Virus record (IMG/VR): IMGVR_UViG_3300031977_002862
Location: 1-64,000 of that record
DNA from: a virus
Reading direction: 5' to 3' (one strand)
Length of the DNA: 64,000 nucleotides
A model generated the notes under the pieces. The model ran no database searches. It was not told the DNA's origin and worked only from the letters and a program-made list of their open reading frames with translations. Shown here piece after piece: positions 19,495 to 51,079 of this stretch. Position 1 is the stretch's first letter. Every line of letters starts with the position of its first letter. Made by a program: the position numbers and the translations under genes.

Positions 19495-21297
19495 TTAAGC
19501 AGGATCGCTATAGTTTCTTTCGAGAGCAGAAGTAATAGATATTGTTTGTGTTTCTGTTCTTGAAATTGTACCTGTTGTGCTCGAATATTGAGCATTATTT
19601 AATCCAATTGCTACAAGAGTAACTCCAGCATCTGTTGCTTTTGTTCTTCCTCCATCTTCATTCAAATCATAATCATAAGTAAACTGAATGTTGCCAGTAG
19701 TATTTTTGCTTCTCAAAGACCAAGAACGTGCAGTCCCATCAGTCTCAAAGTCCTGAGGAGCAGTTACAGTAATTACTGTAGCAGTGTGGCTTGCGATAGT
19801 ATAGAAACCTGCATTCGGACCATCTAAGATATAAAGAATTTGTCCGTCTAAATCCCCTGCTTCTGGAGAACCAGTATCGCCCCAACCTGCTCCTGAAACA
19901 GTAAATGTTTTTCCTGACACAGTACCATCACTAGTACCGCTTGCAGCACCTTGAGTCGGAGTAAATGCTTGATAGTGCAGATCTCCTGTAACAGGAATAT
20001 TCTGATCTGGGCTAGCAGCATCATATGTGCCCGAAGATACATAGAAAGCATTTCCAGTACCATAATTACCTGATGGATTGGTAGTGTAGAAAAGGAAGTA
20101 CTTTGAGTTTGGATCATCTACCAAAGTCTGAGAGAAGTTTAAAGTGACCGAAGCACTAAAGGGGAAGTTTCTCTCAGTTCCTGTATTATCAACAAAAGTT
20201 AATCTGTTAATATCATTATTATTATAATCTACAATTGCTACACCACGATAAGGGCTTTCGTCTTCCGCTTGTATAACTGTTTTTAGATTATCACCAACAA
20301 AAGTAAGAAGCGGATCGGCAACTACACCAAACAAGCTTGCTGCACCTGCATCAATGTCAGAAGTTTGCCTTAGCTGATATTGCACAAACATATAAATTTG
20401 TTCAGCAGTAGGATTATCGCCCGCGTTGTCAACATTTGCATCAATTAAAACACCAAAATTATACGAGTTTGCACCAACACTAATTGCTTGATCAGACGTA
20501 TAGTAGGTAATATTCATATCAGTGTAAGGAGCGGAACCTCCAACTGTAGTATCGTTTTCTGTGATCTTAATATCAACCGCTTCTGAGAGTGGGAATCGAT
20601 ATACCTGGTTTGTAACAGTAGTAGCACCAATACTAGTAGTAGTAGAAGCTCCAAAAGTATACCCAACCACTGGACTTTCATCAGGGGCTGATCGAATGTA
20701 TGTTGTCAATACTTTTGCTCTGTTATCATAAGCAGTTGTAATTCCTCCTGGAGCGCCAAAAGCAGGAGCAGTTCCAGAAGTTTCATAAATTTTAATAGCT
20801 TGATTTACAGGACCAAAATATGTAAAGTCTGTTTTGGTAGTATTATCGTCCCAAGCAAAATAAGCTTTGTGATTTGTCTCGATATTTCCGAGAGTAATAA
20901 CTCCCATATATTCTCGAAGAACAGTACCTGCAGAGTCCTTTTCTGCCCAGCCTCCAGTACGAATAAACGAGCGAGTAGCCGTATTTGTATCGTCCGGTCC
21001 CCAACCATTGATAAATTCAAACTGTTCAGCAGTAATTGCTTCCATTGGGAAGGGGTATTTAATTAGATCAGATTCTGTTTTCCAAAGATTTTTTAGAAAA
21101 GAATATAAGCACTGAAGAGTAACTCCATCTGCTGCAACAAGGCTACTGAAGTTTGTGGGAGAGCCTCCAGTATCATCGTCTTGACTTATCAACTCAATAG
21201 TTTTATTGGTAAGATTCAAGAAAACTTCTCCATCAGGAGTTCCTGTAGAGTCGGCACTTGATCTTGCTAATAAATCTGGATCTGTAATAATTGCCAT
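19495..21297 (-). CDS. Putative virion structural protein (600 aa)
   Basis: T/G/D-rich; GVTLQCLYSFLK..W, YPFPM, IRTGGW; followed by a terminator. Confidence 0.65.
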   Translation of the reverse strand: MAIITDPDLLARSSADSTGTPDGEVFLNLTNKTIELISQDDDTGGSPTNFSSLVAADGVTLQCLYSFLKNLWKTESDLIKYPFPMEAITAEQFEFINGWGPDDTNTATRSFIRTGGWAEKDSAGTVLREYMGVITLGNIETNHKAYFAWDDNTTKTDFTYFGPVNQAIKIYETSGTAPAFGAPGGITTAYDNRAKVLTTYIRSAPDESPVVGYTFGASTTTSIGATTVTNQVYRFPLSEAVDIKITENDTTVGGSAPYTDMNITYYTSDQAISVGANSYNFGVLIDANVDNAGDNPTAEQIYMFVQYQLRQTSDIDAGAASLFGVVADPLLTFVGDNLKTVIQAEDESPYRGVAIVDYNNNDINRLTFVDNTGTERNFPFSASVTLNFSQTLVDDPNSKYFLFYTTNPSGNYGTGNAFYVSSGTYDAASPDQNIPVTGDLHYQAFTPTQGAASGTSDGTVSGKTFTVSGAGWGDTGSPEAGDLDGQILYILDGPNAGFYTIASHTATVITVTAPQDFETDGTARSWSLRSKNTTGNIQFTYDYDLNEDGGRTKATDAGVTLVAIGLNNAQYSSTTGTISRTETQTISITSALERNYSDPA

Positions 21298-21327
21298 TTT
21301 AAATTCCTAAGACTATATAGTCCTTGC

Positions 21328-23372: not shown

Positions 23373-23430
23373 AGAATTTTATTTCCGGAAATCCTGTTTC
23401 AGCAAAGTGAAACTTTAGATATATGGAAAG

Positions 23431-23628: not shown

Positions 23629-23880
23629 TTAATCCGTCCAGATAGCCGCTGCAATCGTTTGTACTAAAGGATCATGCCGTGATACGTCCGTCGGTGTTTC
23701 CGTAACGCTTCCTCCGTTCTCCGTATAAGTGGTAGTCTGGTATAGCTGAACAACGCGCTGAGATTCATGAGGTAGCTGGTCATCTTCTGGGTCGTCAAAA
23801 ACGTCGTTATAAACCACCATCATTCTCTTGTCGGGGTAGACTTCTACGCGTTGAACAGTTGTTGTTTTAGTTATTGCCAT
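23629..23880 (-). CDS. Putative tail-fibre assembly/chaperone protein
   Basis: MAITKTTTVQRVEV...DVS.HDPLVQTIAAAIWT; immediately downstream of the fibre gene. Confidence 0.55.
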   Translation of the reverse strand: MAITKTTTVQRVEVYPDKRMMVVYNDVFDDPEDDQLPHESQRVVQLYQTTTYTENGGSVTETPTDVSRHDPLVQTIAAAIWTD

Positions 23881-26800
23881 TTAATTTCTCCTTAATTATA
23901 GCTTTTAGCTCTTCTATTTGTTCCTGTTGTTCTTTTATAGCCTCGATTAGTACAGGAATAATTTTTTGGTGCTGTACCGTCAAATAATTGTCATCGAAAG
24001 GCGCAGGCACTACAGCGTCTGGAATGACCTCTTGAACTTCCTGAGCGATAACACCAGTCTCATGGCGCACAGAAGGATTGAAGCCTTTTTCTTCAACGTC
24101 ATCACGCCAATCAAACTCTACGCCACGAAGTAGTTGGACTTTTTCGAGTGCGCTTTCAATCGGCTTAATGTTAGTTTTTAAACGAGCATCAGATGCATAA
24201 GCAGTTATGTTGCCAGTGGTTTGGATGTCTCCGCCAGAGTAGACTCGAAATACTACACTTCCAGCAACATTGTTTACCGCTATATAATTTGAAACGCCTG
24301 TGGCAAAACCGTTATATTCTATACTCATGCCCGACGTTAAACCTGTTGCCGTACTTTCGGAAAATTGCAACACAGGACGAGTAGAGTTAGAACCAAGAGT
24401 TAGAACCGTCGTTTGTGTATTCGAGGTTCCAGCTTTGTAAAAGTAGCCGGTTACTCCTGTTATATTACGACTAGAATCAATGACAGTTGTTCCGCCCATC
24501 TTGAGTGAAGTGCCTAGCCATAAGTCCTGCCAATACTTGTCAGTGCGGCCGAGATCAATTGAATTACTTACTGACGGAGAAAATCCCCCTGAAACCAGTA
24601 ACTGCCCTGCACTTGGGCTAAGATTGATAGTGTCGGAGTCTCTAATTAAATCAATATGAGAGCCATAGGTAGAGTTGGTAATTATTACTTTATCTGTAAA
24701 CGTTGAAGTTCCATTTGCGTTCAGGGTCAAAGAATTAGTTCCTGACGTTCCACCTGATATAGAGTCTGATGTTGCGTTTACCCAAAACCTTAAAAAACCG
24801 TTTGCGCTTGTATTTCCAGCTAAAATGTTGTTTTCACCGTTATTACCGAGATGCAATGTTCTCCAATCAACAAGCCCTCTATAGTTAGTAGAGCTTGCTT
24901 GATAGTTCATTATTAAAGCGCCGACCCCACTTCCGCCATTCAGAGTGAAAGAACCAGAATCGACGGATGAATTTCCCTTCATTGTAAGTGGATGATTTAA
25001 ATAGCTATGACTTCTGTAATATCCCTGCCCTCCGCCTAGTATGTCTGCAACGCGGTTTAATTGTTGAGACGCATCAGATTGCCCTGTAATGTCATTCCCA
25101 TTTGCATCTTTGACCATCGCAACGGTTAAGGAAGTGCTTGAGGTTCCTGAGTTATATCCGCTGGTGTAGACAGTAGCGTCTGACTCAGTGTGAAAATAGT
25201 ATGTTTCACCGCCGCGCAGATAGAAGATAATGACATTTGAGCTTGCTGTTCCTCGATACATTCCAAGAATGGTACGCTCGTTGTCTTGGTAGGCGTTGTA
25301 ATGAAAATCATAAGCAAGGGTCATGTCAGACCAGCCCTGACCTCGCGCCCAGCCCACGATCATATTATTATTGTATGGATCGTTACCGCTTTGTGAGTTT
25401 TGGCTGATGACAAAATGATGCGTACTGGTTACGTTGCCTGGATTAGTCAAAACGACTGGATAAAAATTACTCGTGCTAAACGCTGTAAGATTAATTGTTT
25501 TTTGCGTTTTTAAGCGAACATTGGCGCTATTGAGGCTAAGGGCGTTGGTAGTTAAATCCAAGCTGGTTGCACTTATTGTTCCTAGCGTAGCGTTCCCGCT
25601 CGCATCTATCCGTAGCGTTCCATTGCCAGACCCAGTTCGTAATCCGAATACCGCGTTGACGCCAATATCGTCTGTGATCCGCATTTGGAGCTTGTCGCTA
25701 TCTTCGGGTTCGTAAAAATCTAACGCATCGCTATTGGATCGAATGGCAAAGTCTATTCCGGCATCGTTATTACTGAAGTTAATTATTGGGCTCGTTGCCC
25801 CAGTGCTTATCAAGTTAATATTTCTACTGCTATCGATTACCGTACTTCCTCCAACTCGATAACCGTTTAACACGTCAACGTAACCAGCGGCAGATCCATC
25901 ACTCGCATAGCTGGTGCCAGCGTATAGGCTTTCGACTCTAATGCCTTGTGCGGAAGAGCCATCTAGGACTGAGATTTTGTCTGTGGATTGTAGGCTTGCG
26001 GGATAAAACTCGCCAGAACTAGCGATTCTAGTGGTGCCGTTTACAACAAAAGAACCCGGAATGGTAGTGTTGCCGGAACCGTCAAATACAAATTCTTTAT
26101 AAGTCGAGGTGTTTTGTAGACCTGTTCTAAACCTAACACCACCGTCTGTTAGTAAATAAATTTCTTCGCTGTCGGCGTCTGGATTCCATCCGCCTGCATC
26201 CGGATCATAATTTCTACCGATATCTCCTGAGGCAAGAATTAGAGTGTCGTCGGCTGATGCAAGCATCAATCCACCTCGACCCGTTGTTTGCCACAGACCT
26301 CCGTTACCGCTATTACCCATTGAGATAAGCTTTCGTTTATCTCCAGAAACCGTTGGAGAATCTGCTACGTTTTTATCTGGGAATACAATCGTTGCACTAT
26401 CCGTAGTACTACCAACAGTTAATGACCCTGTTAGAGTACCGCCAGTGAGTGGAAGATGTCCTACTTGAGAATAAGTGTAGGCTGTGTTTGCGTTGGTAGA
26501 GCTGCCGCCGGTCCAAGTGACTACACCAAAACCAGTACTCCCGCCTGGTTCAAAAGTTGCGTGAGTACTCCAAGCTGCCGCATTAACCCTTCTCTGTATA
26601 ATTAGAGGGACATCTCCACTACCATTGTCCGGATTAAAAATACGCCAACCGTAGCCATTATTGACATTTGCAGATACAAACTCTAAGCCTGCAGCAGCAT
26701 TCGGCGATCCTTCTGATCCACCTTCTCCGAGCCTAATAAGTCCGTTTTGAGAAGCTTGACCAGTACCGGAAGTAGAATCATTTCCTATAAATAATTGTCC

Positions 26801-29800
26801 TGCTATAATACCTGCAGCATAAGAATCTGCTTGAAAATAATAATACCCCCCTGTATTAAATAGCGCAGTATCATTATAGGTTATAGAATCATTATTATCT
26901 GGAGAAGAAGTCCCCATATAAATAGTACTTGAATAAAGCGTACCTACAAAAGCAGAGGCGTTTACGGTTCCTGTATTCGATACCGAAAACCTAACGGTTA
27001 CACCCGAGTCAGCAATTTTGAAAAGATTAGTACTATCATGCCCCAATAAGGCTCCGTAAGTTCCGCTGTTACTGTCTCTCAAATCAAGCCAGGCATCTGA
27101 GTCTTCACTTTCAAAGATAGCGACGACGTTAGTAGTGCCAGAATTAAAATTAGCAGCAGTAGTATTATTAGCATCTACTGCAAGAGGTCCAGTTAGAGTA
27201 CCACCAGCGAGTGGAAGATGTCCTACTTGAGAATAAGTGTAGGCTGTGTTTGCATTTGTCGAAGACCCACCATCCCACGTAACAGTGTTCGCAACTGTTA
27301 AATTTCCTGCACCCGCGCCTCTGTCAGGAGAACCTGGATGAACATTTATATTTACATTTCCATAAAAAGATGCTGCGAGCGGGTCTGTCCAAGAATTAGA
27401 GCCTCGGCCATGCAAAACAAATGTTGTCCATTCACTGCCTTGATCACTTTCGATAAAAGTTAAATCGTGATCGGGATAAACTGAAGCCGTAGGTATGTTG
27501 CGAATTTTCCAGTTAACGTCTTTCGCTACAGCGTTATTTGTATCCCATCCGCTTGCTCGGAATTCCAATGTTTGCGAGCTATAAGATGTTTCACTAACTG
27601 TCGCTGTGCCCGTTTTTTCTAGTATTATGTTCCCGCTCGCATCGATCCGTTCCGTTCCATCGCCAGACCCAGTTCGTAATCCGAATACCGCGTTGACACC
27701 AGAGTCGTCCGTGATCCGCATATGTAGTTTGTTGGTATCTTCGGGCTCATAAAAGTCTAGCGCTTCAGGCGTTGCTTTTATCGCAAAGTCAACACTACTA
27801 TCAGACGTACCATTGAATGTAATTTCGGGAGTGGCTGTTCCCTCTAGAATTAGAGAGGGGGTAGTTACAGAAGTAGGCGTAATCGCTCCAAGACCAAGAG
27901 TAAAGCTTGCATCCCCAGAAGTAACTGTTGCGCCCCCTGTGATACCATTATTTGTTGTAATGGCAACACCAGTAATATCGGCAGCACCAACAGTCTGGGA
28001 ACCTCCAGAGCCCCCAGGAACAAAACCACCATCGGTCGTCGCGTCTGTAATTGCAATCTCTCTTGCAGTTGTTCCGCTCCACTGATTTTCTGTGGCTACT
28101 CCTGTTCCTGCATAGCTTAATGCAGTTCGAAAATAGTAAGTATCATCTGCGGCTGCTAAAGTAACAGTATCAGTAGCAGTATCAAGAGTAATATATCCAC
28201 TTGCGTCTATACAAGAACTTCCACCAAACTCTACGTTTGCTGTATAAGTTGTAAGAGTTACAAAAAGCTGTTCACCGCCTTCATAGCCGAGATCGATAAT
28301 TTCTGTGTCTTCTGTTTGAACTACTTTATATTGAGTTGAAGTAGGAGTTCCGCTTGTTATTCGAGTAAAAGTTCTTGTATAACTATCTCCTGAAACGGTT
28401 CCGTTTCCGCCGGCTGCAATACTTACTATGGTTGAACCATTAAAAGAAGTATCATCGTCAACATCAAAAGTAATTGTTAAGCTTGTAGGGATTTTTGCGA
28501 GAGTACTTGCAGCACTATCTCCGTTATAACTATATCCTATCGCGGAAAATCCTGCGAAAGCTTTTACTCGAACACGTACAGTTACATTTGAATTATCTAC
28601 TGCTGTTGAAATCGTAGCATACTGGCCAGCAGTATTATGGTTTTCTGCATAAGTTTCTACTTTTGTTTGAGAAACTTGAGCGATTTCTGTAAGAGCAGGA
28701 AATGAGAAGCCTCCGTCATTGCTGTCAAAATATACAGTGCCTTCTGAAGAACGAAGTACTAAATTTCTTGCATTTACTAGGCCATCAGACTTTACAGAAA
28801 AAGTTCCAGAGGTAGGGGTTGATCCCGTATAAAATCTATAATCACCGACTCCGGAAAGACTTGCTGAAGTAGCGCCGGTTCCGGCGGTAATCGTCGTGTC
28901 CGACGCTACAGCTCTTCCTGTTATACTTCCATCAACAATTAAGGAAGAATTTATTCGTAGAGTGTTTCCAAAACTCCATGCGGATCCATCATAAGACCAT
29001 TCAGCCACTTTTGGGGGTGACGATCCATCATATACTAAAACAATGTCTCCGTCAATAGGATTTCTTCCGGCAACGGCAAAAACTTCAGAGTTCGAAGGAG
29101 CGTCTAAATCATCGGGGGAGTTTGCGCTTCTTCTTACTCTCCAATATCCTGGAATAGCGGAAGCGGCTTGAACTTCTTCAATTACTATATTGTCAACTAA
29201 AGTTGTGCCTGCTGCTCCGTTATATTGTACGAGAATGAGAGGTGCGATATATCTTACATTTGGATGTGCTACTGCAGGATCAAGAAAAGTTCTTGAATTA
29301 TAGCCGCCAGCAGAAGCTCCGTGCCCTGAAAAATACCCTTCATATAGAGTCCATGCGTCTGGAATATCTACTCCAACAGCAGCAAAATAGTGCTGACTGC
29401 TGTGGGTATTCGTACCATCTATATTTACAAGAGTTGTTTTGTCTGCTGCAAAACCTCCGAAACCAAAATAAGCAGCTCCACTTCCAGCGGTTTGTCGTGC
29501 AACAACTCTTACTCGATATATTCTTGAAGGATCAAAGGGAATTAATTGCTTTGAAATCAACCATCTTTCATCGTTTCCAGAGTTATTCCCGATTGAGAGA
29601 GAAGTTCCTCCAGAATACGAAGTGGAGGAGAAAGTGATTTCTCCAGCTGCTGTATGGCTTGTCCAATAAGTAAGAAAATCGGCTGAATCTGCGTATTGTT
29701 CAAAATTATCGCGAAGTCGATCTACTACGATTGCTGTAGACTGAATTGTTTCTCCGCCTTCATCCTTTAGGTCTACACCTGCAGTAGCTCCTACAGTCGC

Positions 29801-38251: not shown

Positions 38252-38971
38252 TTAGGGTAGAGCCTCTTCTAAAGATAAACTGAACTGAAAAAGATTGTTC
38301 GTTCCAAGGGAGTATTCTTGAGTATCACCTTTTGGTATTACTCGAATTTTTGGTGCAGAAAAATTAACAGTAGCATTGTCCGCAACTGAATAAACAAGAG
38401 AAGGATTAAAATGAATAATTCTTTGATCCTCCGCGGGTTGAGTAGTTTCAAAATCTCCGTTAGTCTCAACACGAGTAACCATATATGCTTTTACATGGTT
38501 TGAGTTTGCTGAGTCTGTAATAGTAAATATGTCTCCTGGTTTTGGACTTCCACTTGCTCCAGTAAGGCCATCGATAGTCATTTTTGTAGCCCCAGAGTTT
38601 GTAGCACCGTTTACAGAGATTGTATTTGGAACCGCTAAATAAGTTGAAAATGTGGAGTCTTGTGTATCCTCATACTGGGGAAGAACTACGAAAAAAGGAT
38701 TGAGTCTTCCCTGTCTCGACAAAAGAAAAGTATTAACTGGCTCGAACTCTGCTCGTGTAAGTGGATTATAAGAAATATCAAGAGACCAATGCTGCTTTGC
38801 CTGAGAACGAGTAACTACTCGTCCGCCGTTTGTTCGGGACATCATCGTAGGCTGATTCGAAGTAAATTTTACAGAAGCAAAACCAGGACCGGCAGTACCA
38901 GTACTATTATTCTGCTTTCCTGAAGGAAGAATCTTTCGATCAGGATCTGGTAATATATTCATAAAAGCCAT
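38252..38971 (-). CDS. Distal tail protein (Dit, T5 pb9-like)
   Basis: LPDP...GPGFASVKF, WSLDISYNPLTR.EF; between tape measure and tail tip. Confidence 0.85.
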   Translation of the reverse strand: MAFMNILPDPDRKILPSGKQNNSTGTAGPGFASVKFTSNQPTMMSRTNGGRVVTRSQAKQHWSLDISYNPLTRAEFEPVNTFLLSRQGRLNPFFVVLPQYEDTQDSTFSTYLAVPNTISVNGATNSGATKMTIDGLTGASGSPKPGDIFTITDSANSNHVKAYMVTRVETNGDFETTQPAEDQRIIHFNPSLVYSVADNATVNFSAPKIRVIPKGDTQEYSLGTNNLFQFSLSLEEALP

Positions 38972-41900: not shown

Positions 41901-43395
41901 TAGCTCCATTCCTGGCAACAGTAAGAGAAGTAGATAAAGTATTTACTAGACCGGTAACCTGTCCGATTTTTTTGCCTTGTTTTCCTATACTGGCAAAGGC
42001 GACGCCAAAACCGCCAAATGCGCCAGTTTGATCTATTTTTTGCAGAGAAGCGGCTTGCAGGCCAGCTAAACGAGACTTTGCTCTCTTTGCTTCGCCTTTT
42101 GCTCCTAAAGTAAATCTCCTGTTCTCAGCCGCTATCAGTTGCTCCGTAGCAATACGAAGCTGACGAATTTGATCAAGTTCTGCTTGTTTTTGTACCTTTT
42201 TCTCGGCGGAATGGTTTTTGAGAGCAACTTGTCTTAATTGTTCTGATTTTTTAAGATTTTTAACAGCAGTTGTTAAGTCTTTGGCACTCAGAGTGCCTGC
42301 TCTCATCTGGTCTTCTAAAAGCTTTACACTTTTTGGTGCAGCAGCGAAAGTTGGTAAACTTTTTGCTTGTTTAGTATATTCTGCGGCTTGTTTTTTTACA
42401 GAGCCTATAGTTTCTTGTAAAGCTACTCTAGCTAAAAGTCTTTGTCTTTCTATAGCAATATTTATTGCGGGAACGATTTTGTCAATAATTGAGGAAGCAA
42501 AAAGTGCCAAAACACCAGCCAAAGCAGTAGGTGTTTCCGAAAGAAAACGAATTAGAGGAGTCAAAACATTGTTAGCAAGTTTAAGACCAGTATCACTTAA
42601 CTCCCTAAAAGCTGCTGCTAACTGGTCATAGGGATTCGGATCTACAGATTGAGAAATGTCTCCAAATTTCTTTATACCTTGAGTAATAGTTGCATTTAAA
42701 AATGCTTGCCTTCTTTCTGCTTGAGTAAGTTGTTTTGGAAGCTTTCCAAGGCTGTCCGCATAGTCGCTGACAGCATCGTCAAGACGAACCATAATACCTA
42801 ATTCATCTAAAATTTCTGGCTCTAACTTAGCTGTACCTCGTACTAACCTATTCAGAGCATCTTCTAAATCTCTTCCAAGAGCTAATGAAGCTCCTTTTGC
42901 TACTTTGGTAAGCTCTTCAATTTGAGAAGACTCAAAACCAGCACTTGTTCCAAGTGCCACAGCTTCTAAAGATGCCCTTGTTGAAATAGCGTCTCCGGTA
43001 ATTTCTTTTAATTTGTCAGAAATAAATCCTAAATTTTTACCGGCAACTGTACCTGTTCTTTCTAGCCCCTGTTCTAACTGAGTTAATGCTGCATTTTGGC
43101 GAAGAACATTAAAAGCGGCAGAAATTGCAAATACGTTTGCCGCTAAGGTTGCATAAGCGGGTACTAAACCGCCCTCGATTGTTTGTGCTTGTTTTGCGAA
43201 AGCTTTTGTAGAGTTAGAAGTAATTTGGGCGGTGCCCTTCTCCTGTCTCTGATAAGCATTAGTTTTCTTAGCTTGAGTATCTCTAGCAGCAGTCTGCTTA
43301 TTGATAGATTTAGTAACTCCATCAATCTGCTTCTGAACTACTTTTATGTTTTTACCTTCGAGTACTACCTCTAGTAAAACTGAACTATCTGCCAC
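38971..43395 (-). CDS. Tape measure protein (T5 pb2-like)
   Basis: 1,474 aa helical; YATLAANVFAISAAF, KLEPEILDELGI, hydrophobic segments, C-terminal YVVGEQGPELFVP. Confidence 0.92.
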   Translation of the reverse strand: MADSSVLLEVVLEGKNIKVVQKQIDGVTKSINKQTAARDTQAKKTNAYQRQEKGTAQITSNSTKAFAKQAQTIEGGLVPAYATLAANVFAISAAFNVLRQNAALTQLEQGLERTGTVAGKNLGFISDKLKEITGDAISTRASLEAVALGTSAGFESSQIEELTKVAKGASLALGRDLEDALNRLVRGTAKLEPEILDELGIMVRLDDAVSDYADSLGKLPKQLTQAERRQAFLNATITQGIKKFGDISQSVDPNPYDQLAAAFRELSDTGLKLANNVLTPLIRFLSETPTALAGVLALFASSIIDKIVPAINIAIERQRLLARVALQETIGSVKKQAAEYTKQAKSLPTFAAAPKSVKLLEDQMRAGTLSAKDLTTAVKNLKKSEQLRQVALKNHSAEKKVQKQAELDQIRQLRIATEQLIAAENRRFTLGAKGEAKRAKSRLAGLQAASLQKIDQTGAFGGFGVAFASIGKQGKKIGQVTGLVNTLSTSLTVARNGAILLGRAFLNFIPIIGQILSIGSLLFPLLKGLFEKSKVQQAADSAAKSFDSFSDISYELGKALKDSNSETENFTRKSRVLVNIIGQVKDGISSLGVAIKESRTQQIAKLREDFLNLSGDAGFFAQAYALAVSGVGVVGIDKELKRIEENIDSLLSKGDTLDAAGRQAASQILQRAIDRIGDNENLSSLMATQVKSLKIVKNGLDAGAELSAEQIENFLEGLRKKEKAFTDAIDNAAASYANFTKAARAAGDKSSTPFDRATEGLQGFLNEAKAASEVGGIGIDAFFEQAAGSAEYLQKLASEGFITGDTDVKRLESLQEKLDGVVSTYQTIGSEIKGLQTDQKNLNKFVNNQPLVLEKSLDLTNTIIDREIEKLETEREGYDLLNLSEAQKERIDQIDAQIIAKGKERISQEEITARVNQEQLKAKQEILGLEQKIFASKKATLEAEMELARVQYKLQRLADTGSEELSPIEELNFFLKEKENRKKILLEEFNLKTKAIDLEYDLLEAKFEIIKAQAKANGVELSNTGRISQLLSEGRSAAQEAAKKEYDLALKRLELEEQVLRKRAEQDSPGFTKTAEFINQVGEGITRGKATIEVAGRDKESADKEVAGAKIDLAIGRGMGDSAEEIAKLEEALEKAKSKAKDAGKSLKQAFINATLEGIQPMLNKLRELGPNGELVAAISEGTLVMSSAFIELSKETNTAADKIAAVGAIVSSIGNIMAASSEARIAGIDKEIEAEKKRDGKSKESLSKIQALEKKKDRAKRKQFEQNKKISMAEAVIQGSLAIVKALAEGGPILGPILAAAIGALTAAQLAIISSTTYQGGSSSGGTSVPRNISVGERSNKVDVAQQATGSELAGLRGGDTRKIGGMPTSAFMGAKYRAEGGPTAGYVVGEQGPELFVPETPGRIVPNDEMKQAQPVNVNFNVQAIDASSFNDALTTQRGNIISMIREAANTYGETFLEGVNDSAINAGGGKI

Positions 43396-45217: not shown

Positions 45218-46429
45218 TTATGCCTTATAAATAATCGTGGCTTCGTTGGTTGAATCAACATTGCCATCTGCTACCTGACCGTGGAAAGCGACTTCCAGCG
45301 TAAGCAAATCTTCAACATTAATTACAGGCACTTCGAGGTGTGCTGTGGGAAGGTCGAAAGCAATACGAGGAGTATTTGTGGTTTCGCCTCCAATATTTAC
45401 AGTCATATCGAATACGTTTCTGACTGTTGAAGTATCGCTCACTAAGTCTGCAAAAAGTTCTCCTGATTTACTCTGGTTGGTATCATTATCAAGATAACAG
45501 GTTAGAGATCCTGAAATTGAACGAGCACCAGTAATATTTGCAAGAGGAGCATTTACAACACCGAGTTCCTCCGGAGTGAGGTAGGTGATGTTATTTTCCA
45601 TAGAAATACTTCCACCGGTAAGAACAATACTGTAAACATCTTGAATATTATCGGGAGAAGTTGATTCATTCAAACCAGCATCAGGTGAGCCAATAAACTT
45701 ATCGTTTCTTACGAGAGAAAGTGTTGAGATTCGGTTACGAATAAAGTTTGTTGTATCAGTAAGACCATTTGAAATTACTTTATCAGGAGAAGTGTTACCA
45801 AGCTCATCAGGTTGAGTTAGTCCTTCATCTGAAATTTGCTTTGCAAAACCGCTCCACTGAAGAGTTGCAATTCCATCGATATCAAAATCCATCGTAATAG
45901 AGTTTACGACGGCACTCTGAAGTTTATAGTACTGTTTATTGTCCCCATCTTCAAAAGCAAACCAAATATCCCAGTTATCGGGCATCGATGAAACATTTGA
46001 CTGGCTAAAATCAAATGTGTTTGTTGAATCAAGAGCGGGACTTTGATCTACTAAACTATTTACAGCGTTGCCGCCCTTTTTAAATACTTCGTTATTTGTA
46101 TCCCACGTATCAGCACCTACAAACATGGCCCATAAAGACTCTTCTACAGCGTGACATTTTGAGTCATTATCCGGACTAGAAGTTGAGTCAAAAGGTCGAG
46201 CATAAGTACTCATTGACCATTCTACAGGGGCCAAACTGTCATTGAAGAGCAGTCTTGCTCGTCGTGAAGTTGTTCCTGCTTCATTGATCGTAATTTCTGA
46301 AGAATTAATTGATTGCGTAAAAGAAAAGCCATCAAGTACAGAAAGTTTCCATGATTGTACATGATTTCCTGAACTGGCGTCTCTCAACGAAACGTATACT
46401 TCTGCATTTCTTGTAAATTGTAATGCCAT
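45218..46429 (-). CDS. Major tail tube protein (T5 pb6-like)
   Basis: VLDGFSFTQ, FNDSLAPVEWSMSTY.RP, FDIDGIA, NNITYLTPEELG.VN.P. Confidence 0.9.
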   Translation of the reverse strand: MALQFTRNAEVYVSLRDASSGNHVQSWKLSVLDGFSFTQSINSSEITINEAGTTSRRARLLFNDSLAPVEWSMSTYARPFDSTSSPDNDSKCHAVEESLWAMFVGADTWDTNNEVFKKGGNAVNSLVDQSPALDSTNTFDFSQSNVSSMPDNWDIWFAFEDGDNKQYYKLQSAVVNSITMDFDIDGIATLQWSGFAKQISDEGLTQPDELGNTSPDKVISNGLTDTTNFIRNRISTLSLVRNDKFIGSPDAGLNESTSPDNIQDVYSIVLTGGSISMENNITYLTPEELGVVNAPLANITGARSISGSLTCYLDNDTNQSKSGELFADLVSDTSTVRNVFDMTVNIGGETTNTPRIAFDLPTAHLEVPVINVEDLLTLEVAFHGQVADGNVDSTNEATIIYKA

Positions 46430-46929: not shown

Positions 46930-48350
46930 TAAACTCTCCTAGTATAAAATCTTGCTGTCAATAATTCTGCCGCTATCTCTCTTATAGATTTATCTATTAA
47001 TTTCCTTGGATCTCTGTCTACTGTTGCCCAAGGAGGTTTTCCGGCCCCTTTCTCAAAAATCTGATAAGGATTTTTTCTATAAGTATATCCAATACTTGGA
47101 AAGCCTCTTGCTGTTTGTGAAATATCTGTTACTCTAACACTCTCTGCGAATCTTCCAGTTTTATTCTCTAGTCCTGGGGCTCCCATATTGTTTTTTACAG
47201 TTCTTGGTAGCTTTTGATTAATTAAAGCTATCATAGAAATATTGCTAGCTGCGGAAGATTTTTTAGGTCCTGGAGCTTTGAGTCCTTTCAGTGCCCCAAG
47301 CTGTAAATTTTTTGGTTTTACTTTTTTTACTTTTTTATTAGCTTTTTTAGTTTCTTTTGCCGTTTTAGTTAAATCTATTTTAAAATTATCGCTTTTAACT
47401 TTTACATTTTTTCTTCGAACTATTTTAGTATCAAACCTTTCTATTACTTTTTTTCGCTCTACGTCTATTCTGGTATCTGAGCCAGGCCTTTTAGACAAAC
47501 TCTTAGATTTATCTACTTTTAATAGAGCGTTTCGTAATCTTTGTAAAGCATCTCTTTTAAAAGAGGCTTCAGTTGTTGTACCGTATAACCTATTATAATA
47601 TTCTGATTCAAAACCAACTTCTAATGTTTCTTTTTCTTTAGTAGCCTTCTTTTTTACGAAAAAACCTAACCCTAAATTTCTGATGTCTTTTTCAGTTATT
47701 TTATTATCTTGCTTAGCTCTTTGATTGTATGTATTAATTCTGCTGCTTAGTTGTGAACTGGCCCTGCCAACCTGCTGCTCTACAACAGAAGAACCTGCCC
47801 GATGTCCTAAATCTAAAAACTTCCCTGCTTGTATTTCTGAGCTTTGCGAGTTTTTAAAAGCATCGGGATCTATACTCTTCAAAACTGTATTTAAGTTTTT
47901 TACTAAAGTGTCTTTTCTACTAGAGAATAAATTTTTTATCGCATTGAAAACACTTTCAGGAGTATCTTTCCAGTAAACTCTTTCGTTTTTTTCAGCCTCT
48001 AAAACTTTTATTGCCCACGCCGACCTATTACCAACTACACGGGTATTAACATTAGATCCGTATTTTTTTCGTGCCTTCTCGTAGGTACCATTTACAAGAT
48101 TTCTTACATACTTATCTAAGGTTTCTTCAAATCTTTGATCGATTAAAACTCTAATATCTATTCTGTATGTCGGGGAGGTCAGTTCTCTAATAACTTGAGC
48201 CTTTACTCCGTTCACTGAAGATTTGAAAGTATGTTCTTTTAGGTCAGAATCCGTTTGTCTAAAACCATCTATGCCTTGTCTAGTATTAGAAGGTTTCTCT
48301 AACTCTGCTATAGTTTCTTCAAGTAATTTCTTTAAAAACCTTTTGCTCAC
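46929..48350 (-). CDS. Tail completion/neck protein (extended T5 p143-like)
   Basis: Basic; C-terminal M..P.L...TGRFA.SV, Y...PY..FE, RDPR.LI..SIREIA. Confidence 0.7.
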   Translation of the reverse strand: MSKRFLKKLLEETIAELEKPSNTRQGIDGFRQTDSDLKEHTFKSSVNGVKAQVIRELTSPTYRIDIRVLIDQRFEETLDKYVRNLVNGTYEKARKKYGSNVNTRVVGNRSAWAIKVLEAEKNERVYWKDTPESVFNAIKNLFSSRKDTLVKNLNTVLKSIDPDAFKNSQSSEIQAGKFLDLGHRAGSSVVEQQVGRASSQLSSRINTYNQRAKQDNKITEKDIRNLGLGFFVKKKATKEKETLEVGFESEYYNRLYGTTTEASFKRDALQRLRNALLKVDKSKSLSKRPGSDTRIDVERKKVIERFDTKIVRRKNVKVKSDNFKIDLTKTAKETKKANKKVKKVKPKNLQLGALKGLKAPGPKKSSAASNISMIALINQKLPRTVKNNMGAPGLENKTGRFAESVRVTDISQTARGFPSIGYTYRKNPYQIFEKGAGKPPWATVDRDPRKLIDKSIREIAAELLTARFYTRRV

Positions 48351-48955
48351 GTTCTATACATATCCAGCACTCTTCGAATATGGTCCGGAAATCCAGGATC
48401 ATTTCGTATTGCAGAGCTTCCTGCACCTTCACGAGTAGCTGAACCAATAGTTTGACGCTCTTTCCATTCGTCTTTATGGTAATAAGTTACCAAGTCACTA
48501 ATAGCTAATTTCAAATCTGAAGGAGTTTCTACATATCCGGCAGTATATACCACCTTTACAGCTCCTACTCCTTTCGGCCAATTTCTATACTGCCCGCTTT
48601 CATAAGTTCTAAAAATAGAATCGCTTACAGTATCAAGATACCAAGAATAATCTGCCGGGCTTCCTTCTCCCGCGCTAAATAATTCTTTATAATCGGCCGA
48701 TTGTGTAGCTCTCTCATATACATTTAAAACATTAATGACAGGGCTTTCTCTTAGTTGTACTACATAAGTATCCCACTGAATATTAAATAATTCTGTATAT
48801 CCAGGGGAGGCAGAATAAGTATCAAACTCATTACTACAATAAGTTCGGACAAGTTGACTTACACTCGTAATCAATGACTCAAACTTTTCGTCGTACTGAG
48901 TAGAGTTTACACCTTCAAATAACTTATACTCATCTAATGTAATTAAATCTGCCAT
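48347..48955 (-). CDS. Head completion / head-tail connector protein (T5 p144-like)
   Basis: LITLDEYK, VKVVYTAGY.ETP.DLKLA, FPDHIRRVLDMYR. Confidence 0.85.
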   Translation of the reverse strand: MADLITLDEYKLFEGVNSTQYDEKFESLITSVSQLVRTYCSNEFDTYSASPGYTELFNIQWDTYVVQLRESPVINVLNVYERATQSADYKELFSAGEGSPADYSWYLDTVSDSIFRTYESGQYRNWPKGVGAVKVVYTAGYVETPSDLKLAISDLVTYYHKDEWKERQTIGSATREGAGSSAIRNDPGFPDHIRRVLDMYRT

Positions 48956-48967
48956 GATTTCCTCAGG

Positions 48968-49001
48968 AAAAAGAGCTTGGGAGGCCCAGATGAACCTCCC
49001 A
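48968..49001 (-). terminator. Probable terminator after the capsid gene
   Basis: GGGAGG...CCTCCC stem followed on the minus strand by AAGCTCTTTTT. Confidence 0.55.
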
Positions 49002-49018
49002 TTCTCAATAAGTATCTA

Positions 49019-51079
49019 TTAATACTTGTGAACAACAACCTGACCAGCTGCTTCAAAGATCTGGTCGAAACCACGTCTTTGAGTAGCAACCAATACACGG
49101 CGCTGAGCTTCGACTTGATAGTCTTGCTCAACCGTAGCGCCACGCAATACGGGAACTACGAAGTTGCGGGTATTTACAGCAACACCCCATGCAGCATTTT
49201 CAGCTACAGCAGGGAATTCGTCACATACGACTACGGGTGAACCGTAAACCGTACCCAACTCACCCGTTACACGAGTACCAACTTCACCGAGTTCATTAGA
49301 CTTCTGGAAGTCAACATCATCAAGCAGATCGTAGTAAGCATCCAAAGAAATAATGTATACTACATCACCAGGACGACGACCATACTTGCCCATTGCTTGA
49401 CGCATATCTAAAAGCTTAGCTGCCGTGATAGAAATATCGACCGCAGGTGAGCCCAAATCAAGAACCATACCAGAGCCTGAAAGATCTTCAGCACGCTTTA
49501 CAAGACCCTTGTAGCTTGCGGGAGTAGTAATAGAGTCGCCAGAAGCATTACCCATCAAAAGCGAGTGTTCAATCAAACGAGCGTGTGCACGAATCATTGA
49601 CTCACGAATCAAAGGCAATACTGGAATAATTGCGTCTTCCTCTACTTCATTAGCAATGTAAGACTTTGATACCATCTTTTCAACGGTAAGAATCTTGCTT
49701 CCCATTGCAATGCCATCATTAGGAGACGTGCCTGCACGATCTTCTAAGTTGCCGCCAAAGGGATTTTCTGCACCTGAACCTGCAGTGTTACCTGCAGTAG
49801 TAAAGTCTGCATAACCTGCATCGGGCATAGTAGGAATAACCATTGAAGCGGCAGTCATCTGAATCTTACGGAAAAGAGGATCCAAAACAAGCTCAAGCTC
49901 GATGTCACGCTCAATCGCCGTAGAAACAGTAGTTTCAAAAGCTTCAATAGAAGCGGAAGGAACAGAAACGCCTGAATTTTCATTCACAGCCTTTTCAATT
50001 AAAGACTTAGCGAGTTTGTTGTCCCAACCCTTGCGAGAAATAACGCCCAACAAATGAGCATCAACTAAATCAGACTCATGAGTCTTGATAAAATCACGCT
50101 CTTGGCCACGATCAGCAAAGACACGCTTTGACTCACGAATCTTCTCAATTTCAGCAGCTTTTTCCGTCAGCTCACCTTGCAGTTCGCCAATAATTTTTTC
50201 ATAATCAGCATCTTTTTCAGCCATTTTAGCTTCAACGTCAGCCATTAATTTTTCTGTACCGCTAGTTACGGCGGTAACAATACGCTGTTCTTCGTCAGCT
50301 TTCTGAGCTTCAGCTTCGGCAGCAGCTTTTTGTTCTGCTTCCATCTTAGCTTGCTCTTCTGCCTTGCGCTCAGCGTCTTTCATTGCCATTGCAGCCGCAG
50401 TCTTCTCGACAGCAGCGGCTACGATAGCGTCGATATCAATATCGCTCATAGTTTTCTCCTGTGCTTCGACTTGTGATAAGTCTTTTGGCATTGATTCGTC
50501 AGAATGTTTTTCAAACTCAACAGTTACTTTATCTTCGGTCTCCCGAACACTCAGTACATGTTTCTCTTCGGAATCGTTTAATTTGAAAGATTTCTTGAAC
50601 TCTTCGTACTCATTCTCTGAGTCAAAAGATTTCGCAAGAGAAAAGGTTGCAGCCTGGTTAGCAGGAACCGTGACTACCGAAACCTCCAGTAATTCTGCAT
50701 CCTTGATCTTGTATCCATCGGTTTCCGTCATATACTCCGCGTCCTTGACTCGGAAACCAACAGAAAAAGCTCCAAGAACGCCTTCTTTAATCAATTCGCC
50801 TACGTGACCAGCAGATTTAGCAATTTTTGCTTTTAACTGCAGACCATTATCATTCGTACCAAGCTGAACTGCCCGGCCAATCGGCTGATTGTAGTCATGA
50901 TTAAAAAGAATTACAGGGTTATTAAGAAAGTTGTCAAGCCCGCCTTTAGTCCAGGCCTCTGTCTCAATAACATCTCCAACTCGGTCAGTACCATTAGTAC
51001 TGGCCATTCCAGCAATGTGAAGGTCATCGCCCTCATCAAATGCTTTGAAAGTGGAGCCAATATGAAAAATTTTATTCAC
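49019..51079 (-). CDS. Fused HK97-type prohead protease + major capsid protein
   Basis: N-terminal protease (GMAST...DRVGD, NPVILFNHD, FSVGF, ELLEVSVVTVPAN), then coiled-coil scaffold and HK97-fold capsid (EVEEDAIIP.LPLIRESM, G.VYGSPVVV). Confidence 0.93.
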   Translation of the reverse strand: MNKIFHIGSTFKAFDEGDDLHIAGMASTNGTDRVGDVIETEAWTKGGLDNFLNNPVILFNHDYNQPIGRAVQLGTNDNGLQLKAKIAKSAGHVGELIKEGVLGAFSVGFRVKDAEYMTETDGYKIKDAELLEVSVVTVPANQAATFSLAKSFDSENEYEEFKKSFKLNDSEEKHVLSVRETEDKVTVEFEKHSDESMPKDLSQVEAQEKTMSDIDIDAIVAAAVEKTAAAMAMKDAERKAEEQAKMEAEQKAAAEAEAQKADEEQRIVTAVTSGTEKLMADVEAKMAEKDADYEKIIGELQGELTEKAAEIEKIRESKRVFADRGQERDFIKTHESDLVDAHLLGVISRKGWDNKLAKSLIEKAVNENSGVSVPSASIEAFETTVSTAIERDIELELVLDPLFRKIQMTAASMVIPTMPDAGYADFTTAGNTAGSGAENPFGGNLEDRAGTSPNDGIAMGSKILTVEKMVSKSYIANEVEEDAIIPVLPLIRESMIRAHARLIEHSLLMGNASGDSITTPASYKGLVKRAEDLSGSGMVLDLGSPAVDISITAAKLLDMRQAMGKYGRRPGDVVYIISLDAYYDLLDDVDFQKSNELGEVGTRVTGELGTVYGSPVVVCDEFPAVAENAAWGVAVNTRNFVVPVLRGATVEQDYQVEAQRRVLVATQRRGFDQIFEAAGQVVVHKY

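What the first reader, a model, noticed from the sequence alone, without database searches (positions are those of the whole stretch)
19495..51079. Virion-wide (G/S/T)-S-P-(D) motif: a candidate modification or binding sequon on capsid, neck, tail tube and fibre proteins
Seen: the 403-aa tail tube has five SP sites, four of them SPD (SSPDN, TSPDK, GSPDA, TSPDN, plus QSPAL). By hand count the 4,794-aa tip/fibre has about 35 SP, about 17 GSP and about 12 SPD (SGSPDRF, DSGSPDRR, AGSPDGG, ASPDKG, GGSPDAE, TGSPDAF, AGSPDEI, NSPDD, PGSPDRG, SSPDNN). The 600-aa protein has GGSPT, DESPV, DESPY, AASPD and TGSPE; the capsid has GTSPND and LGSPAV; the head completion protein has SASPG and EGSPAD; Dit has SGSPK. 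The replication enzymes contain only scattered SP. Ser codons differ between sites (AGT-CCG-GAT, TCT-CCT-GAT, TCA-CCT-GAT, TCT-CCC-GAT in the tail tube), so this is not a DNA repeat and points to protein-level selection. Established: some phages glycosylate capsid and tail-tube proteins, and bacterial O-glycosylation often targets Ser in Pro-containing loops. Inference: these are surface-loop tags for a particle-wide modification (O-glycosylation, phosphorylation or prolyl hydroxylation) or docking sites for a decoration factor. No modifying enzyme is evident in this window.
Basis: partly seen in the sequence, partly recalled or inferred. Interest (0 to 1): 0.86.

Follow-up and report, generated by a model that had tools for sequence, protein, structure and literature searches.

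The report
G-S-P-D tag on phage tail
The outward-facing tail tube and giant tail-tip protein of this uncultured marine T5-like phage carry the short motif Gly-Ser-Pro-(Asp) about ten times more often than chance, and the phage encodes its own sugar-transferase gene island, so the motif may mark sugar-attachment sites, although no modification has been shown and close relatives give mixed support.

Summary
The 4,794-aa hub-fibre protein has 35 SP, 17 GSP, 12 SPD and 7 GSPD (expected 17.5, 1.75, 1.2 and 0.12). The 403-aa tube has 4 SPD (expected 0.14). The excess survives 15-20-residue local shuffles. It uses both Ser codon families and does not come from repeats. It is absent from 150 homologous fibre proteins. 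"Virion-wide" is overstated: other outer proteins show only modest GSP excess (7 vs 1.5), and inner proteins and replication genes show none.

S-P is the conserved core and lies in variable exposed loops. Outside the window (genome 79.3-85.3 kb) is a ten-gene island of soluble enzymes: a Maf/DUF115-like transferase, GT8, a GT8-like paralogue, methyltransferases and a cupin. I found no kinase, prolyl hydroxylase or DNA-hypermodification gene.

My best reading (about 0.38) is an O-glycosylation tag read by this island. Co-occurrence evidence is thin. One complete relative has both the transferase pair and S-P excess, and one has neither. Several close island-bearing relatives show only weak excess in the fibres available. 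D3 and CcrBL9, which carry DUF115 homologues, show none. A purely structural turn motif remains a strong rival (about 0.30). The scan has noted analogous motif-plus-transferase cases on other phage DNA.

The parts
23867..38251 (-). 4,794-aa baseplate hub plus fibre fusion. It is the main carrier of the motif: 35 SP, 17 GSP, 12 SPD, 7 GSPD.
   Evidence: N-terminal residues about 207-440 match the T5 pb3 baseplate hub (E = 2e-58). The C-terminus has a Peptidase_S74 chaperone domain at 4687-4747. Counts and shuffles. Flanks of the 22 core sites are no more alike than random Ser-anchored windows.
29864..32989 (-). Densest run of sites in the giant protein (residues 1756-2794): 11 of its 17 GSP, including five GSPD.
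   Evidence: Site list and nucleotide coordinates. In the AF2 model of residues 1700-2300, GSPE at 2154 forms a short helical turn between strands in a confident region. The other sites fall in loops or low-confidence stretches.
45218..46429 (-). T5 pb6-type tail tube protein (403 aa) with 5 SP, of which 4 are SPD.
   Evidence: Pfam Phage_tube_2. Foldseek match to T5 pb6 and the DT57C tube at E about 1e-18. SPD 4 vs 0.14 expected.
46169..46177 (-). Tube site S85-P-D (context SSPDN), in a lineage-specific loop insertion.
   Evidence: pLDDT below 50 in loop 84-88. The insertion is present in a minority of 121 homologues, and others carry TP, ASP or SPDA there.
46034..46042 (-). Tube site S130-P-A (context QSPAL).
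   Evidence: Loop 130-133. Most homologues have NTPA at this position.
45782..45790 (-). Tube site S214-P-D (context TSPDK), in a variable loop.
   Evidence: Lies between strands 188-203 and 236-241. Other homologues have GGSPA, AGSPA or TSPEK here.
45650..45688 (-). Tube sites S248-P-D (IGSPDA) and S258-P-D (TSPDN), in one flexible loop.
   Evidence: pLDDT below 50 in loop 248-260. Site 258 is family-conserved: VSPD in about 74 of 121 homologues. Site 248 lies in an insertion found in about 25 of 121. Some homologues insert a whole domain here.
49019..51079 (-). Prohead protease fused to the major capsid protein (686 aa). It has 3 SP, all in the capsid part: GTSPND, LGSPAV and YGSPVVVC.
   Evidence: Peptidase_S78 at residues 38-149. 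YGSPV[IV]VC is conserved across relatives and has hydrophobic flanks, so it is probably a structural position.
48347..48955 (-). Head completion protein (202 aa) with 3 SP: SASPG, ESPV and EGSPAD.
   Evidence: Pfam HCP. SP 3 vs 0.7 expected. GSPA[ED]Y is conserved in relatives.
38252..38971 (-). Distal tail protein (Dit, pb9-like) with one GSP (SGSPK).
   Evidence: Pfam DTP-pb9 domains. Relative L030 has three GSP in its Dit.
19495..21297 (-). 600-aa distal fibre-like protein with 5 SP, including 2 GSP.
   Evidence: SP 5 vs 1.9, GSP 2 vs 0.2. No family match. Its partial homologue in relative G021 has 0 SP.
38971..43395 (-). Tape measure protein (1,474 aa). It is an internal negative control: SP 2 vs 1.9 expected and no GSP.
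   Evidence: Pooled inner or transient proteins have SP 7 vs 6.7 and GSP 0 vs 0.4.

Best explanation
The (G)-S-P-(D) motif is a short tag selected on outward-facing loops of the tail tube and the hub-fibre giant protein of this marine T5-like phage. I think it most likely marks serines that the phage's own cytoplasmic enzymes O-glycosylate during assembly.

Proposed sequence of events (all inferred):
- The stand-alone Maf/DUF115-like transferase puts the first sugar on Ser. This could be an ulosonic acid such as Kdo taken from the host CMP-Kdo pool, since G000 encodes no sugar-nucleotide pathway of its own.
- GT8 and its paralogue extend the glycan.
- The three to four methyltransferases cap it.
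- The result is a methylated sugar coat on the tube and tail tip.

Shown: the motif's enrichment, its directionality and Ser-specificity, its loop location, its restriction to outer proteins, retention of S-P in fast-evolving loops, and the existence and soluble nature of the enzyme island.

Inferred: that the island acts on virion proteins, that Ser of the motif is the acceptor, and the nature of the sugar.
For: 1. A compact motif in unrelated contexts. Over 22 core sites, Gly or another small residue is at -1 in 91%, an acidic residue at +1 in 59%, and an acidic residue at -3 in 32% against 11% background. Flanks are no more similar than random.

2. Directional and Ser-specific. In the G000 structural block, SP is 70 vs 39.7 expected while PS is 38, TP 0.99x, GTP 5 and PSG 4. 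The SP:PS ratio differs from the fibre background at p = 9e-6.

3. Not a property of the protein class. In 150 homologous fibre proteins (272,105 aa), SP is 1.01x, GSP 1.36x and SPD 0.81x, with 6 GSPD in total.

4. Outer proteins only, in loops and insertions.

5. Repeated gains. In 40 non-redundant tube homologues, SP occupies 37 alignment columns, against 11 for PS, 15 for TP and 19 for AP. GSP occurs 31 times vs 4.4 expected. PSG and DPS never occur.

6. S-P is kept at 14 of 14 sites in the 92-97%-identical relative, while flanks in the tube loops change.

7. The enzyme island. DUF115 passes the Pfam cut-off and matches phrog_4603. Its structural neighbours are Maf, WaaZ and GT fusions at TM about 0.8. 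GT8, a GT8-like paralogue, methyltransferases and a cupin are also present. No island protein has a convincing membrane segment. Pfam finds no flippase, polymerase or ligase family in the island, and there is no Wzy_C hit in six frames. There is no thymidylate-synthase-type hydroxymethylase that would point to DNA as the target.

8. DUF115-plus-methyltransferase cassettes sit inside or next to virion modules in phages D3 and CcrBL9.

9. Three informative genomes agree. G000 has the island and the motif. G001 (complete) has the DUF115-GT8 pair within a 16-gene glycan operon, and SP 127 vs 59.9 in its structural block. G002 has an empty syntenic site and no excess; its tube has 0 SP.
Against: 1. 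No modification has been observed.

2. Close relatives with the DUF115 gene, some also with GT8 (G021, G032/G034, G033/G036, G035), show only weak excess in the fibre proteins on their contigs: SP 1.37x (p = 0.014) and GSP 1.9x (p = 0.04). Their tube and hub genes are cut off, so the test is incomplete.

3. D3 head and tail proteins, and the CcrBL9 tail protein next to DUF115 homologues, have no S-P excess.

4. Maf-type enzymes have no known sequon (my own knowledge; the Maf preprint read uses neither 'consensus', 'sequon' nor 'motif').

5. Part of G001's S-P excess comes from tandem repeats. Many of its other contexts look like first strands of Ig-like domains, although Pfam finds none.

6. 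Some GSP sites have hydrophobic flanks and are family-conserved, which suggests structural rather than exposed positions: hub IGSPVLLF and capsid YGSPVVVC.

7. G, S, P and D are the classic turn-forming residues. The one confidently modelled site is a turn cap.

8. The island is 22 kb or more from the structural genes. Its enzyme families (WaaZ-like, GT8, RfbT/FkbM-like) also resemble LPS-modifying enzymes.
Confidence: 0.38

Rival explanations
1. A purely structural loop motif. Gly-Ser-Pro-Asp is a favourable tight turn or helix N-cap: Ser caps, Pro rigidifies, Asp hydrogen-bonds, and Gly allows the backbone angle. This lineage would have used it repeatedly when building and stabilising exposed loops and insertions in long beta-rich tail proteins. 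Nothing is attached to it.
For: All mapped sites are in loops or turns. GSPE at residue 2154 is modelled as a short helical turn in a confident region. Several sites are conserved with hydrophobic flanks. S-P at tube position 258 is conserved across most of the family. Island-bearing relatives, D3 and CcrBL9 lack strong enrichment.
Against: It does not explain why 150 homologous fibre proteins of the same architecture show no enrichment: GSP 1.36x, SPD 0.81x, and 6 GSPD in 272,105 aa against 7 in this one protein. It does not explain why Thr-Pro and Gly-Thr-Pro are not enriched, or why the reverse motifs are absent. The excess also survives 15-20-residue local-composition shuffles.
Confidence: 0.3
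2. A docking or ion-binding site rather than a modification site. The acidic-x-Gly-Ser-Pro-Asp loops would bind divalent cations abundant in sea water, or a decoration protein or host surface ligand, along the tube and tip.
For: Acidic residues are enriched at -3 (32% vs 11%, p = 0.007) and at +1 (59%) around an exposed Ser. The motif is restricted to outer proteins.
Against: The motif matches no canonical Ca-binding motif that I know of (own knowledge). The acidic flanks are not conserved: D changes to E or G in the 92%-identical relative, and relatives use GSPA, GSPG or GSPT. No decoration-protein candidate was identified.
Confidence: 0.1
3. A different or host-encoded modification of Ser-Pro. 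This could be proline-directed phosphorylation, prolyl hydroxylation followed by glycosylation, or a host general O-glycosylation system. In this reading the phage island serves another target, such as host LPS or another envelope component.
For: Relative G001 encodes a P4H-family 2OG-Fe(II) oxygenase (PF13640, E = 2e-16) inside its glycan operon. The island's enzyme families (WaaZ-like DUF115, GT8, FkbM/RfbT-like) are typical of LPS modification.
Against: G000 has no PF13640, Pkinase, GT2 or Wzy_C/PglL hit in six frames. The host is unknown. A lytic T5-like phage has no obvious need for seroconversion (own knowledge).
Confidence: 0.08
4. A chance or compositional artefact of Ser-, Gly-, Asp- and Pro-rich fibre sequence.
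For: The proteins are rich in S (10.7%), G (10%) and D (7%).
Against: p is between 1e-9 and 1e-11 against composition. No block shuffle of 500 reaches the observed counts. The motif ranks top among tripeptides with more than two occurrences. It exceeds the first-order expectation.
Confidence: 0.02

Closest known systems
Virion glycosylation of mycobacteriophages by phage-encoded glycosyltransferases (Che8, Corndog, Myrna; Freeman et al. 2023, Cell Host Microbe). Recalled from my own knowledge and not read here. It is cited indirectly in PMC11256854 and PMC12363180.
   Same: A phage encodes its own glycosyltransferases, and the capsid and tail tube are the outward-facing candidate targets.
   Different: Actinobacterial hosts and unrelated enzymes. 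As I recall, those glycans sit on C-terminal extensions of the capsid and tube subunits. Here the candidate sites are internal loops with a defined G-S-P-(D) core. The host is presumably Gram-negative and marine, and nothing has been shown biochemically.
Maf (motility-associated factor, DUF115/PF01973) flagellin Ser/Thr-O-nonulosonic-acid glycosyltransferases, including their promiscuous Kdo and Neu5Ac transfer (bioRxiv 10.1101/2020.06.03.131540).
   Same: The same catalytic domain family (Pfam hit above cut-off; structural neighbours at TM about 0.8). Both are cytoplasmic and act on surface-exposed Ser/Thr of a self-assembling polymer before assembly. CMP-Kdo from the host could serve as donor.
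   Different: The phage protein is a 211-aa stand-alone domain without the Maf N- and C-terminal domains. Its clade is phage-specific, with no close bacterial homologue. Maf has no known sequon. The acceptor here would be tail proteins rather than flagellin.
Self-encoded glycosylation of giant-virus capsids (chloroviruses, mimiviruses; reviewed in PMC9614988, listed but not read in detail).
   Same: Virus-encoded cytoplasmic glycosylation machinery with methylated sugars and atypical sequons (my own knowledge).
   Different: Eukaryotic viruses with N-linked glycans on Asn in chloroviruses, and different enzyme families.
Ser-Pro glycomodules of plant and algal hydroxyproline-rich glycoproteins (own knowledge).
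   Same: An S-P dipeptide is the core recognition unit. Relative G001 carries a P4H-family oxygenase next to its glycosyltransferases.
   Different: G000 has no prolyl hydroxylase. The sites are isolated loops, not clustered repeats.
T5 tail tube pb6 and baseplate hub pb3.
   Same: The carrier proteins are clear homologues.
   Different: The cultured-like outgroup of T5-type phages (IMG/VR loci with about 40% identical tubes, and G002) shows no S-P enrichment. No Vibrio, Salmonella or other T5-like phage is named among the organisms with a DUF115 match in the cultured-phage collection, although four minor organism groups were not listed.

Membership tests
Phage-encoded virion glycosylation (mycobacteriophage type) | The phage genome encodes glycosyltransferases. 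| tested here: met
   GT8 (PF01501, E = 5e-7, above cut-off), DUF115/MptE-like (PF01973, 37.8 bits vs cut-off 34.6) and a GT8-like paralogue at genome 79296-85253.
Phage-encoded virion glycosylation (mycobacteriophage type) | A glycan is detected on the capsid or tail tube subunits. | not testable with these tools
   This needs virion mass spectrometry or glycan staining, and the phage is uncultured.
Phage-encoded virion glycosylation (mycobacteriophage type) | Acceptor sites lie on C-terminal extensions of the capsid and tube subunits (feature recalled from memory). | tested here: not met
   The tube sites are at residues 85, 130, 214, 248 and 258 of 403, and the capsid sites at 452, 544 and 614 of 686. 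All are internal loops.
Maf-type protein O-glycosyltransferase (DUF115) | A PF01973 catalytic domain with a Maf-like fold. | tested here: met
   Pfam hit above cut-off, although it covers only residues 8-48. phrog_4603 at E = 1e-27. Atlas structural neighbours include Maf_flag10_N- and WaaZ_KDO_III-bearing clusters at TM 0.79-0.86.
Maf-type protein O-glycosyltransferase (DUF115) | Multi-domain architecture (Maf N-terminal and C-terminal domains) and a flagellin acceptor. | tested here: not met
   The protein is a 211-aa stand-alone domain. Its nearest clusters are 190-225-aa viral proteins. There is no PDB sequence match.
Maf-type protein O-glycosyltransferase (DUF115) | A linked CMP-nonulosonic-acid biosynthesis pathway. 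| tested here: inconclusive
   Pfam found none in the G000 island. G001 has Polysacc_synt_2, an RmlD-like reductase and a UDP-GlcNAc 2-epimerase. These fit a UDP-L-FucNAc-type pathway at least as well as a NulO pathway.
Sequon-directed O-glycosylation | A short ordered motif enriched on exposed parts of target proteins only. | tested here: met
Sequon-directed O-glycosylation | Motif density co-varies with presence of the enzyme across genomes. | tested here: inconclusive
   Consistent in G000, G001 and G002. Weak in the fibres of G021, G032, G033 and G035. Absent in D3 and CcrBL9.
Proline-directed phosphorylation | A Ser/Thr protein kinase is available from the phage. | tested here: not met
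   No PF00069 hit in six frames. A host kinase cannot be tested.
Hydroxyproline-linked glycosylation (S-P glycomodule) | A prolyl-4-hydroxylase-type 2OG-Fe(II) oxygenase is present. | tested here: not met
   No PF13640 hit in G000. One is present in relative G001.
T5 pb6 tail tube / pb3 hub | Fold and sequence homology. | tested here: met
   Foldseek E = 1.5e-18 to 7qg9_A and 5ngj. phmmer E = 2e-58 to pb3 7zhj.

The most novel reading that the evidence does not exclude
G-S-P-(D) is the acceptor sequon of a phage-encoded cytoplasmic O-glycosylation system. A stand-alone Maf-like ulosonic-acid transferase starts the glycan, GT8 enzymes extend it and methyltransferases cap it. The system coats the tail tube and tail tip of a clade of marine T5-like phages with a methylated glycan. 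The variable gene slot after HSP20 (empty, 2, 4, 10 or 16 genes in different relatives) diversifies that coat.
Probability: 0.3. Interest if true: 0.8.

Novelty: new variant of a known kind. Interest (0 to 1): 0.6.

Why it matters
If the tag is a glycosylation site, this would be the first sequon-type, loop-directed sugar coat on the tail of a phage of (presumably) Gram-negative marine bacteria. It would be made by a phage-specific clade of Maf-like enzymes. That would extend virion glycosylation beyond mycobacteriophages.

It would also give a defined four-residue tag that can be tested by co-expression. It would explain why lytic marine phages carry large, rapidly changing glycan gene islands. 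A coat of this kind could affect adsorption, stickiness to marine particles and recognition by host defences.

Even if the motif proves to be structural, it is an unusually clean case of a lineage-specific tetrapeptide enriched about 50-fold in one protein.

Tried and rejected
- Repeat ancestry in the giant protein. Only three copies of a 90-aa repeat exist and GSP is not in register. Flank similarity is at random level. Rejected for G000. It does explain much of the S-P excess in G001's 1187-aa ORF, P0127 and P0141.

- DNA-level motif. Rejected because Ser uses mixed codon families.

- Local composition. Rejected by block shuffles.

- A general property of fibre proteins. Rejected by the 150-homologue background.

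- Ig-like domain first strands as the source of G001's S-P sites. No Pfam support, so left open.

- Genome-level co-occurrence.
  - IMG/VR and JGI contigs holding the tube are all fragments, apart from G001 and G002.
  - GT8- or DUF115-bearing contigs never reach the tube.
  - The two genome-contig scans found nothing.

- A full-length homologue search for the giant's middle region found one weak hit.

- The marine phage PTM paper (PMC12014285) reports only phosphorylation and acetylation and no sequon. The JBD30 paper is irrelevant. No paper on sequon-directed phage virion glycosylation turned up.

- The AF2 model of giant residues 1700-2300 is only partly confident (mean pLDDT 62), so six of its ten sites (five in stretches with pLDDT below 50, plus the terminal ASPD at residue 2298) could not be placed.

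Full report
**What the window is.** The window is the first 64 kb of a 91,844-bp single-contig virus record (CheckV 91% complete). It is a T5-like siphovirus.

- Its structural block on the minus strand encodes a portal, a large terminase subunit and a prohead protease fused to the major capsid protein.
- It also encodes a head completion protein, a T5 p143-like tail completion protein and a tail terminator.
- The tail proteins are a pb6-type tail tube, a tape measure protein and a pb9-type Dit.
- The last large gene is a 4,794-aa protein. Its N-terminus is a pb3-type baseplate hub and its C-terminus is a Peptidase_S74 chaperone.
- The nearest cultured phages are Vibrio T5-likes, with only 31% tube identity.
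- Metagenomes hold many relatives at 50-92% identity.

| Protein | Motif | Observed | Expected | p (Poisson) |
|---|---|---|---|---|
| Giant | SP | 35 | 17.5 | 1.5e-4 |
| Giant | GSP | 17 | 1.75 | 8e-12 |
| Giant | SPD | 12 | 1.22 | 7e-9 |
| Giant | GSPD | 7 | 0.12 | 7e-11 |
| Tube | SPD | 4 | 0.14 | 1.5e-5 |

Further controls:

- GSP and SPD are the most over-represented tripeptides with more than two occurrences in the giant. They exceed a dipeptide-based expectation 3-fold and 2.2-fold.
- Shuffling only within blocks of 15-100 residues leaves the result unchanged.
- Ser is TCN at 22 sites and AGY at 13.
- The 'virion-wide' part is weaker. Without the giant and tube, the structural block has GSP 7 vs 1.5 (p = 1e-3) and SPD 1 vs 1.3.
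- Inner or transient proteins have SP 7 vs 6.7 and no GSP.
- Non-structural genes are at expectation.

**What the motif looks like.** The 22 GSP-or-SPD sites of the giant share nothing beyond a compact core:

- hydrophobic at -4 (50% vs 29% background);
- acidic at -3 (32% vs 11%);
- Gly or another small residue at -1 (91%);
- Ser, then Pro;
- acidic at +1 (59%, mostly Asp).

Their flanks are no more alike than random Ser-anchored windows. The only clear internal repeat, three copies of about 90 aa, does not carry GSP in register.

The signal is directional and Ser-specific. In the structural block SP is 70 and PS is 38. TP is at 0.99x expectation. GTP occurs 5 times and PSG 4 times, against GSP 25.

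**Where the sites sit.** In the AF2 tube model (pLDDT 65, confirmed as pb6-like by Foldseek), all five S-P lie outside strands. Four lie in segments with pLDDT below 50.

In an alignment of 121 homologues, position 258 is a family-conserved VSPD. Positions 85, 214 and 248 lie in insertions present in a minority of homologues. Some homologues insert a whole domain at the 248-260 loop, which marks the outer face of the tube.

The giant-segment model is only partly confident. There, GSPE at 2154 is a short helical turn between strands.

**Evolution.**

- Across 40 non-redundant tube homologues, S-P occurs 119 times in 37 columns. PS occurs 27 times in 11 columns, TP 101 in 15, and AP 113 in 19. 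GSP occurs 31 times vs 4.4 expected. PSG and DPS never occur.
- In the closest relative (tube 92% identical), all 14 S-P of the shared proteins are kept. In the tube loops the flanks change at four of five sites, and Asp becomes Glu or Gly at two. S-P is therefore the core and Asp is a local preference.
- Against P0123, the nearest homologue of the giant (55% identity over residues 1-2264), 9 of 19 S-P are conserved, compared with 36% of all dipeptides. Several GSP(D) sites are specific to G000.
- The enrichment is not a class property. In 150 homologous fibre proteins (272,105 aa), SP is 1.01x, GSP 1.36x and SPD 0.81x, with 6 GSPD in all.
- Pooled over 80 IMG/VR structural loci of relatives, SP is 1.08x and GSP 2.1x. 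The GSP excess is concentrated in closer relatives and partly in conserved capsid and head completion protein positions.

**Candidate modifier.** At genome 79296-85253, right after an HSP20 gene, ten tightly packed genes encode:

- a DUF115/MptE-like protein (PF01973 above cut-off; phrog_4603);
- a Coq4-like protein;
- GT8;
- a class I methyltransferase;
- an unknown protein;
- a second methyltransferase;
- a GT8-like paralogue;
- a second unknown protein;
- an FkbM/RfbT-like methyltransferase;
- a small cupin.

The atlas model of the DUF115 protein (pTM 0.91) aligns at TM about 0.8 with DUF115 domains of several families. These are Maf flagellin O-glycosyltransferases, WaaZ Kdo transferase, and fusions with GT2 or glycerophosphotransferases. 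Its nearest clusters are almost purely viral. No close bacterial homologue was found.

Other points on the island and genome:

- None of the island proteins has a convincing membrane segment.
- In six frames the genome has no P4H-type oxygenase, Hanks kinase, GT2, Wzy_C/PglL or thymidylate-synthase-type hydroxymethylase.
- The replication module is ordinary.

The enzymes therefore look like a cytoplasmic system acting on a soluble target. Phosphorylation and hydroxylation have no phage-encoded enzyme.

Homologues of the DUF115 gene sit in or beside virion modules in two unrelated phages:

- In phage D3 it lies between the major head protein and the head-tail adaptor, with a methyltransferase nearby.
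- In Caulobacter phage CcrBL9 it lies directly after the tail fibre genes, and is again followed by a methyltransferase.

**Does the motif go with the island?** The slot after HSP20 is variable.

- G001 (106 kb, complete) has DUF115 plus GT8 heading a 16-gene glycan operon. The operon includes:
  - two GT2 enzymes, several methyltransferases and a UDP-sugar dehydrogenase;
  - a WbjB/C/D-like triad;
  - a PF13640 oxygenase.
- G001's structural block has SP 127 vs 59.9, PS 1.07x and TP 1.00x. Part of this excess is repeat-driven.
- G002 (75 kb) has an empty slot. Its tube has no S-P, and the rest of its genome shows no SP or GSP excess.

These three genomes agree with the sequon idea. Other evidence does not:

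- Several close relatives of G000 (replication genes 72-89% identical) carry DUF115, and some of them also GT8.
- They show only weak excess in the fibre proteins present on their contigs. Pooled SP is 57 vs 41.7 and GSP is 10 vs 5.2.
- Their tube and hub genes are cut off.
- D3 and CcrBL9 show no S-P excess.

**Verdict.** A lineage-specific, ordered, Ser-specific tetrapeptide that arises independently in exposed loops of outer tail proteins, and that is absent from homologous proteins elsewhere, points to a lineage-specific reader of the motif. The phage's own glycosylation island is the best candidate. I put this at about 0.38.

A purely structural turn motif is the main rival, at about 0.30. 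It fits the loop and turn locations and the weak co-occurrence. It does not explain the lineage specificity, the directionality or the Ser-over-Thr preference. Ion or partner binding (about 0.10), another or host-encoded modification (about 0.08) and chance (about 0.02) follow.

No paper in the library describes sequon-directed glycosylation of phage tails. Earlier notes of this scan describe analogous motif-plus-glycosyltransferase cases in other phages. Those notes are unverified AI notes, and I used them as leads only.

Noticed in passing
G000 genome 79296-85253 (outside the window; L002:696-6653): A ten-gene island of soluble enzymes sits directly after an HSP20 gene. It encodes a DUF115/Maf-like transferase, a Coq4-like protein, GT8, three to four methyltransferases including an FkbM/RfbT-like one, a GT8-like paralogue, two unknown proteins and a cupin.
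   Followed up: yes
G001 53367-65697 (L093, L086, L087): The same slot in a complete 106-kb relative holds a 16-gene glycan operon. It includes two GT2 enzymes, a UDP-sugar dehydrogenase, a Polysacc_synt_2 / RmlD-like / UDP-GlcNAc 2-epimerase triad (UDP-L-FucNAc-type pathway) and a P4H-family 2OG-Fe(II) oxygenase. The slot is empty in G002 and holds 2-4 genes in G032-G036, so it is a hypervariable glycan cassette.
   Followed up: partly
window 49019-51079 (-): The prohead serine protease (Peptidase_S78, residues 38-149) is fused in one ORF with the major capsid protein.
   Followed up: no
window 23867-38251 (-): A single 4,794-aa ORF combines a pb3-type baseplate hub, about 4,000 residues of fibre and a C-terminal Peptidase_S74 intramolecular chaperone. 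Residues about 2265-4568 have no counterpart in the nearest homologue, P0123.
   Followed up: partly
window 6180-6659 (+): An HNH endonuclease gene is inserted between the PhoH-like gene and the helicase gene of the replication module. It has no homologue in G001.
   Followed up: no
L090 (phage D3, NC_002484) 5691-6409: The DUF115 match spans both annotated CDS, orf6.5 and orf7 (5861-6388), so these are probably one gene that has been mis-split. It lies between the major head protein and the head-tail adaptor.
   Followed up: no
protein P0127 (4,388-aa fibre homologue from a metagenome): It has SP 84 vs 22 expected while TP is 4 vs 27.7 expected. This is mostly repeat-driven, but the near-absence of Thr-Pro is striking.
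   Followed up: partly
protein P0271 (2,540 aa): It has 24 S-P (8.8 expected) in non-duplicated contexts. Fourteen of them are preceded by Asp or Asn, a different flavour of S-P enrichment in another fibre protein.
   Followed up: no
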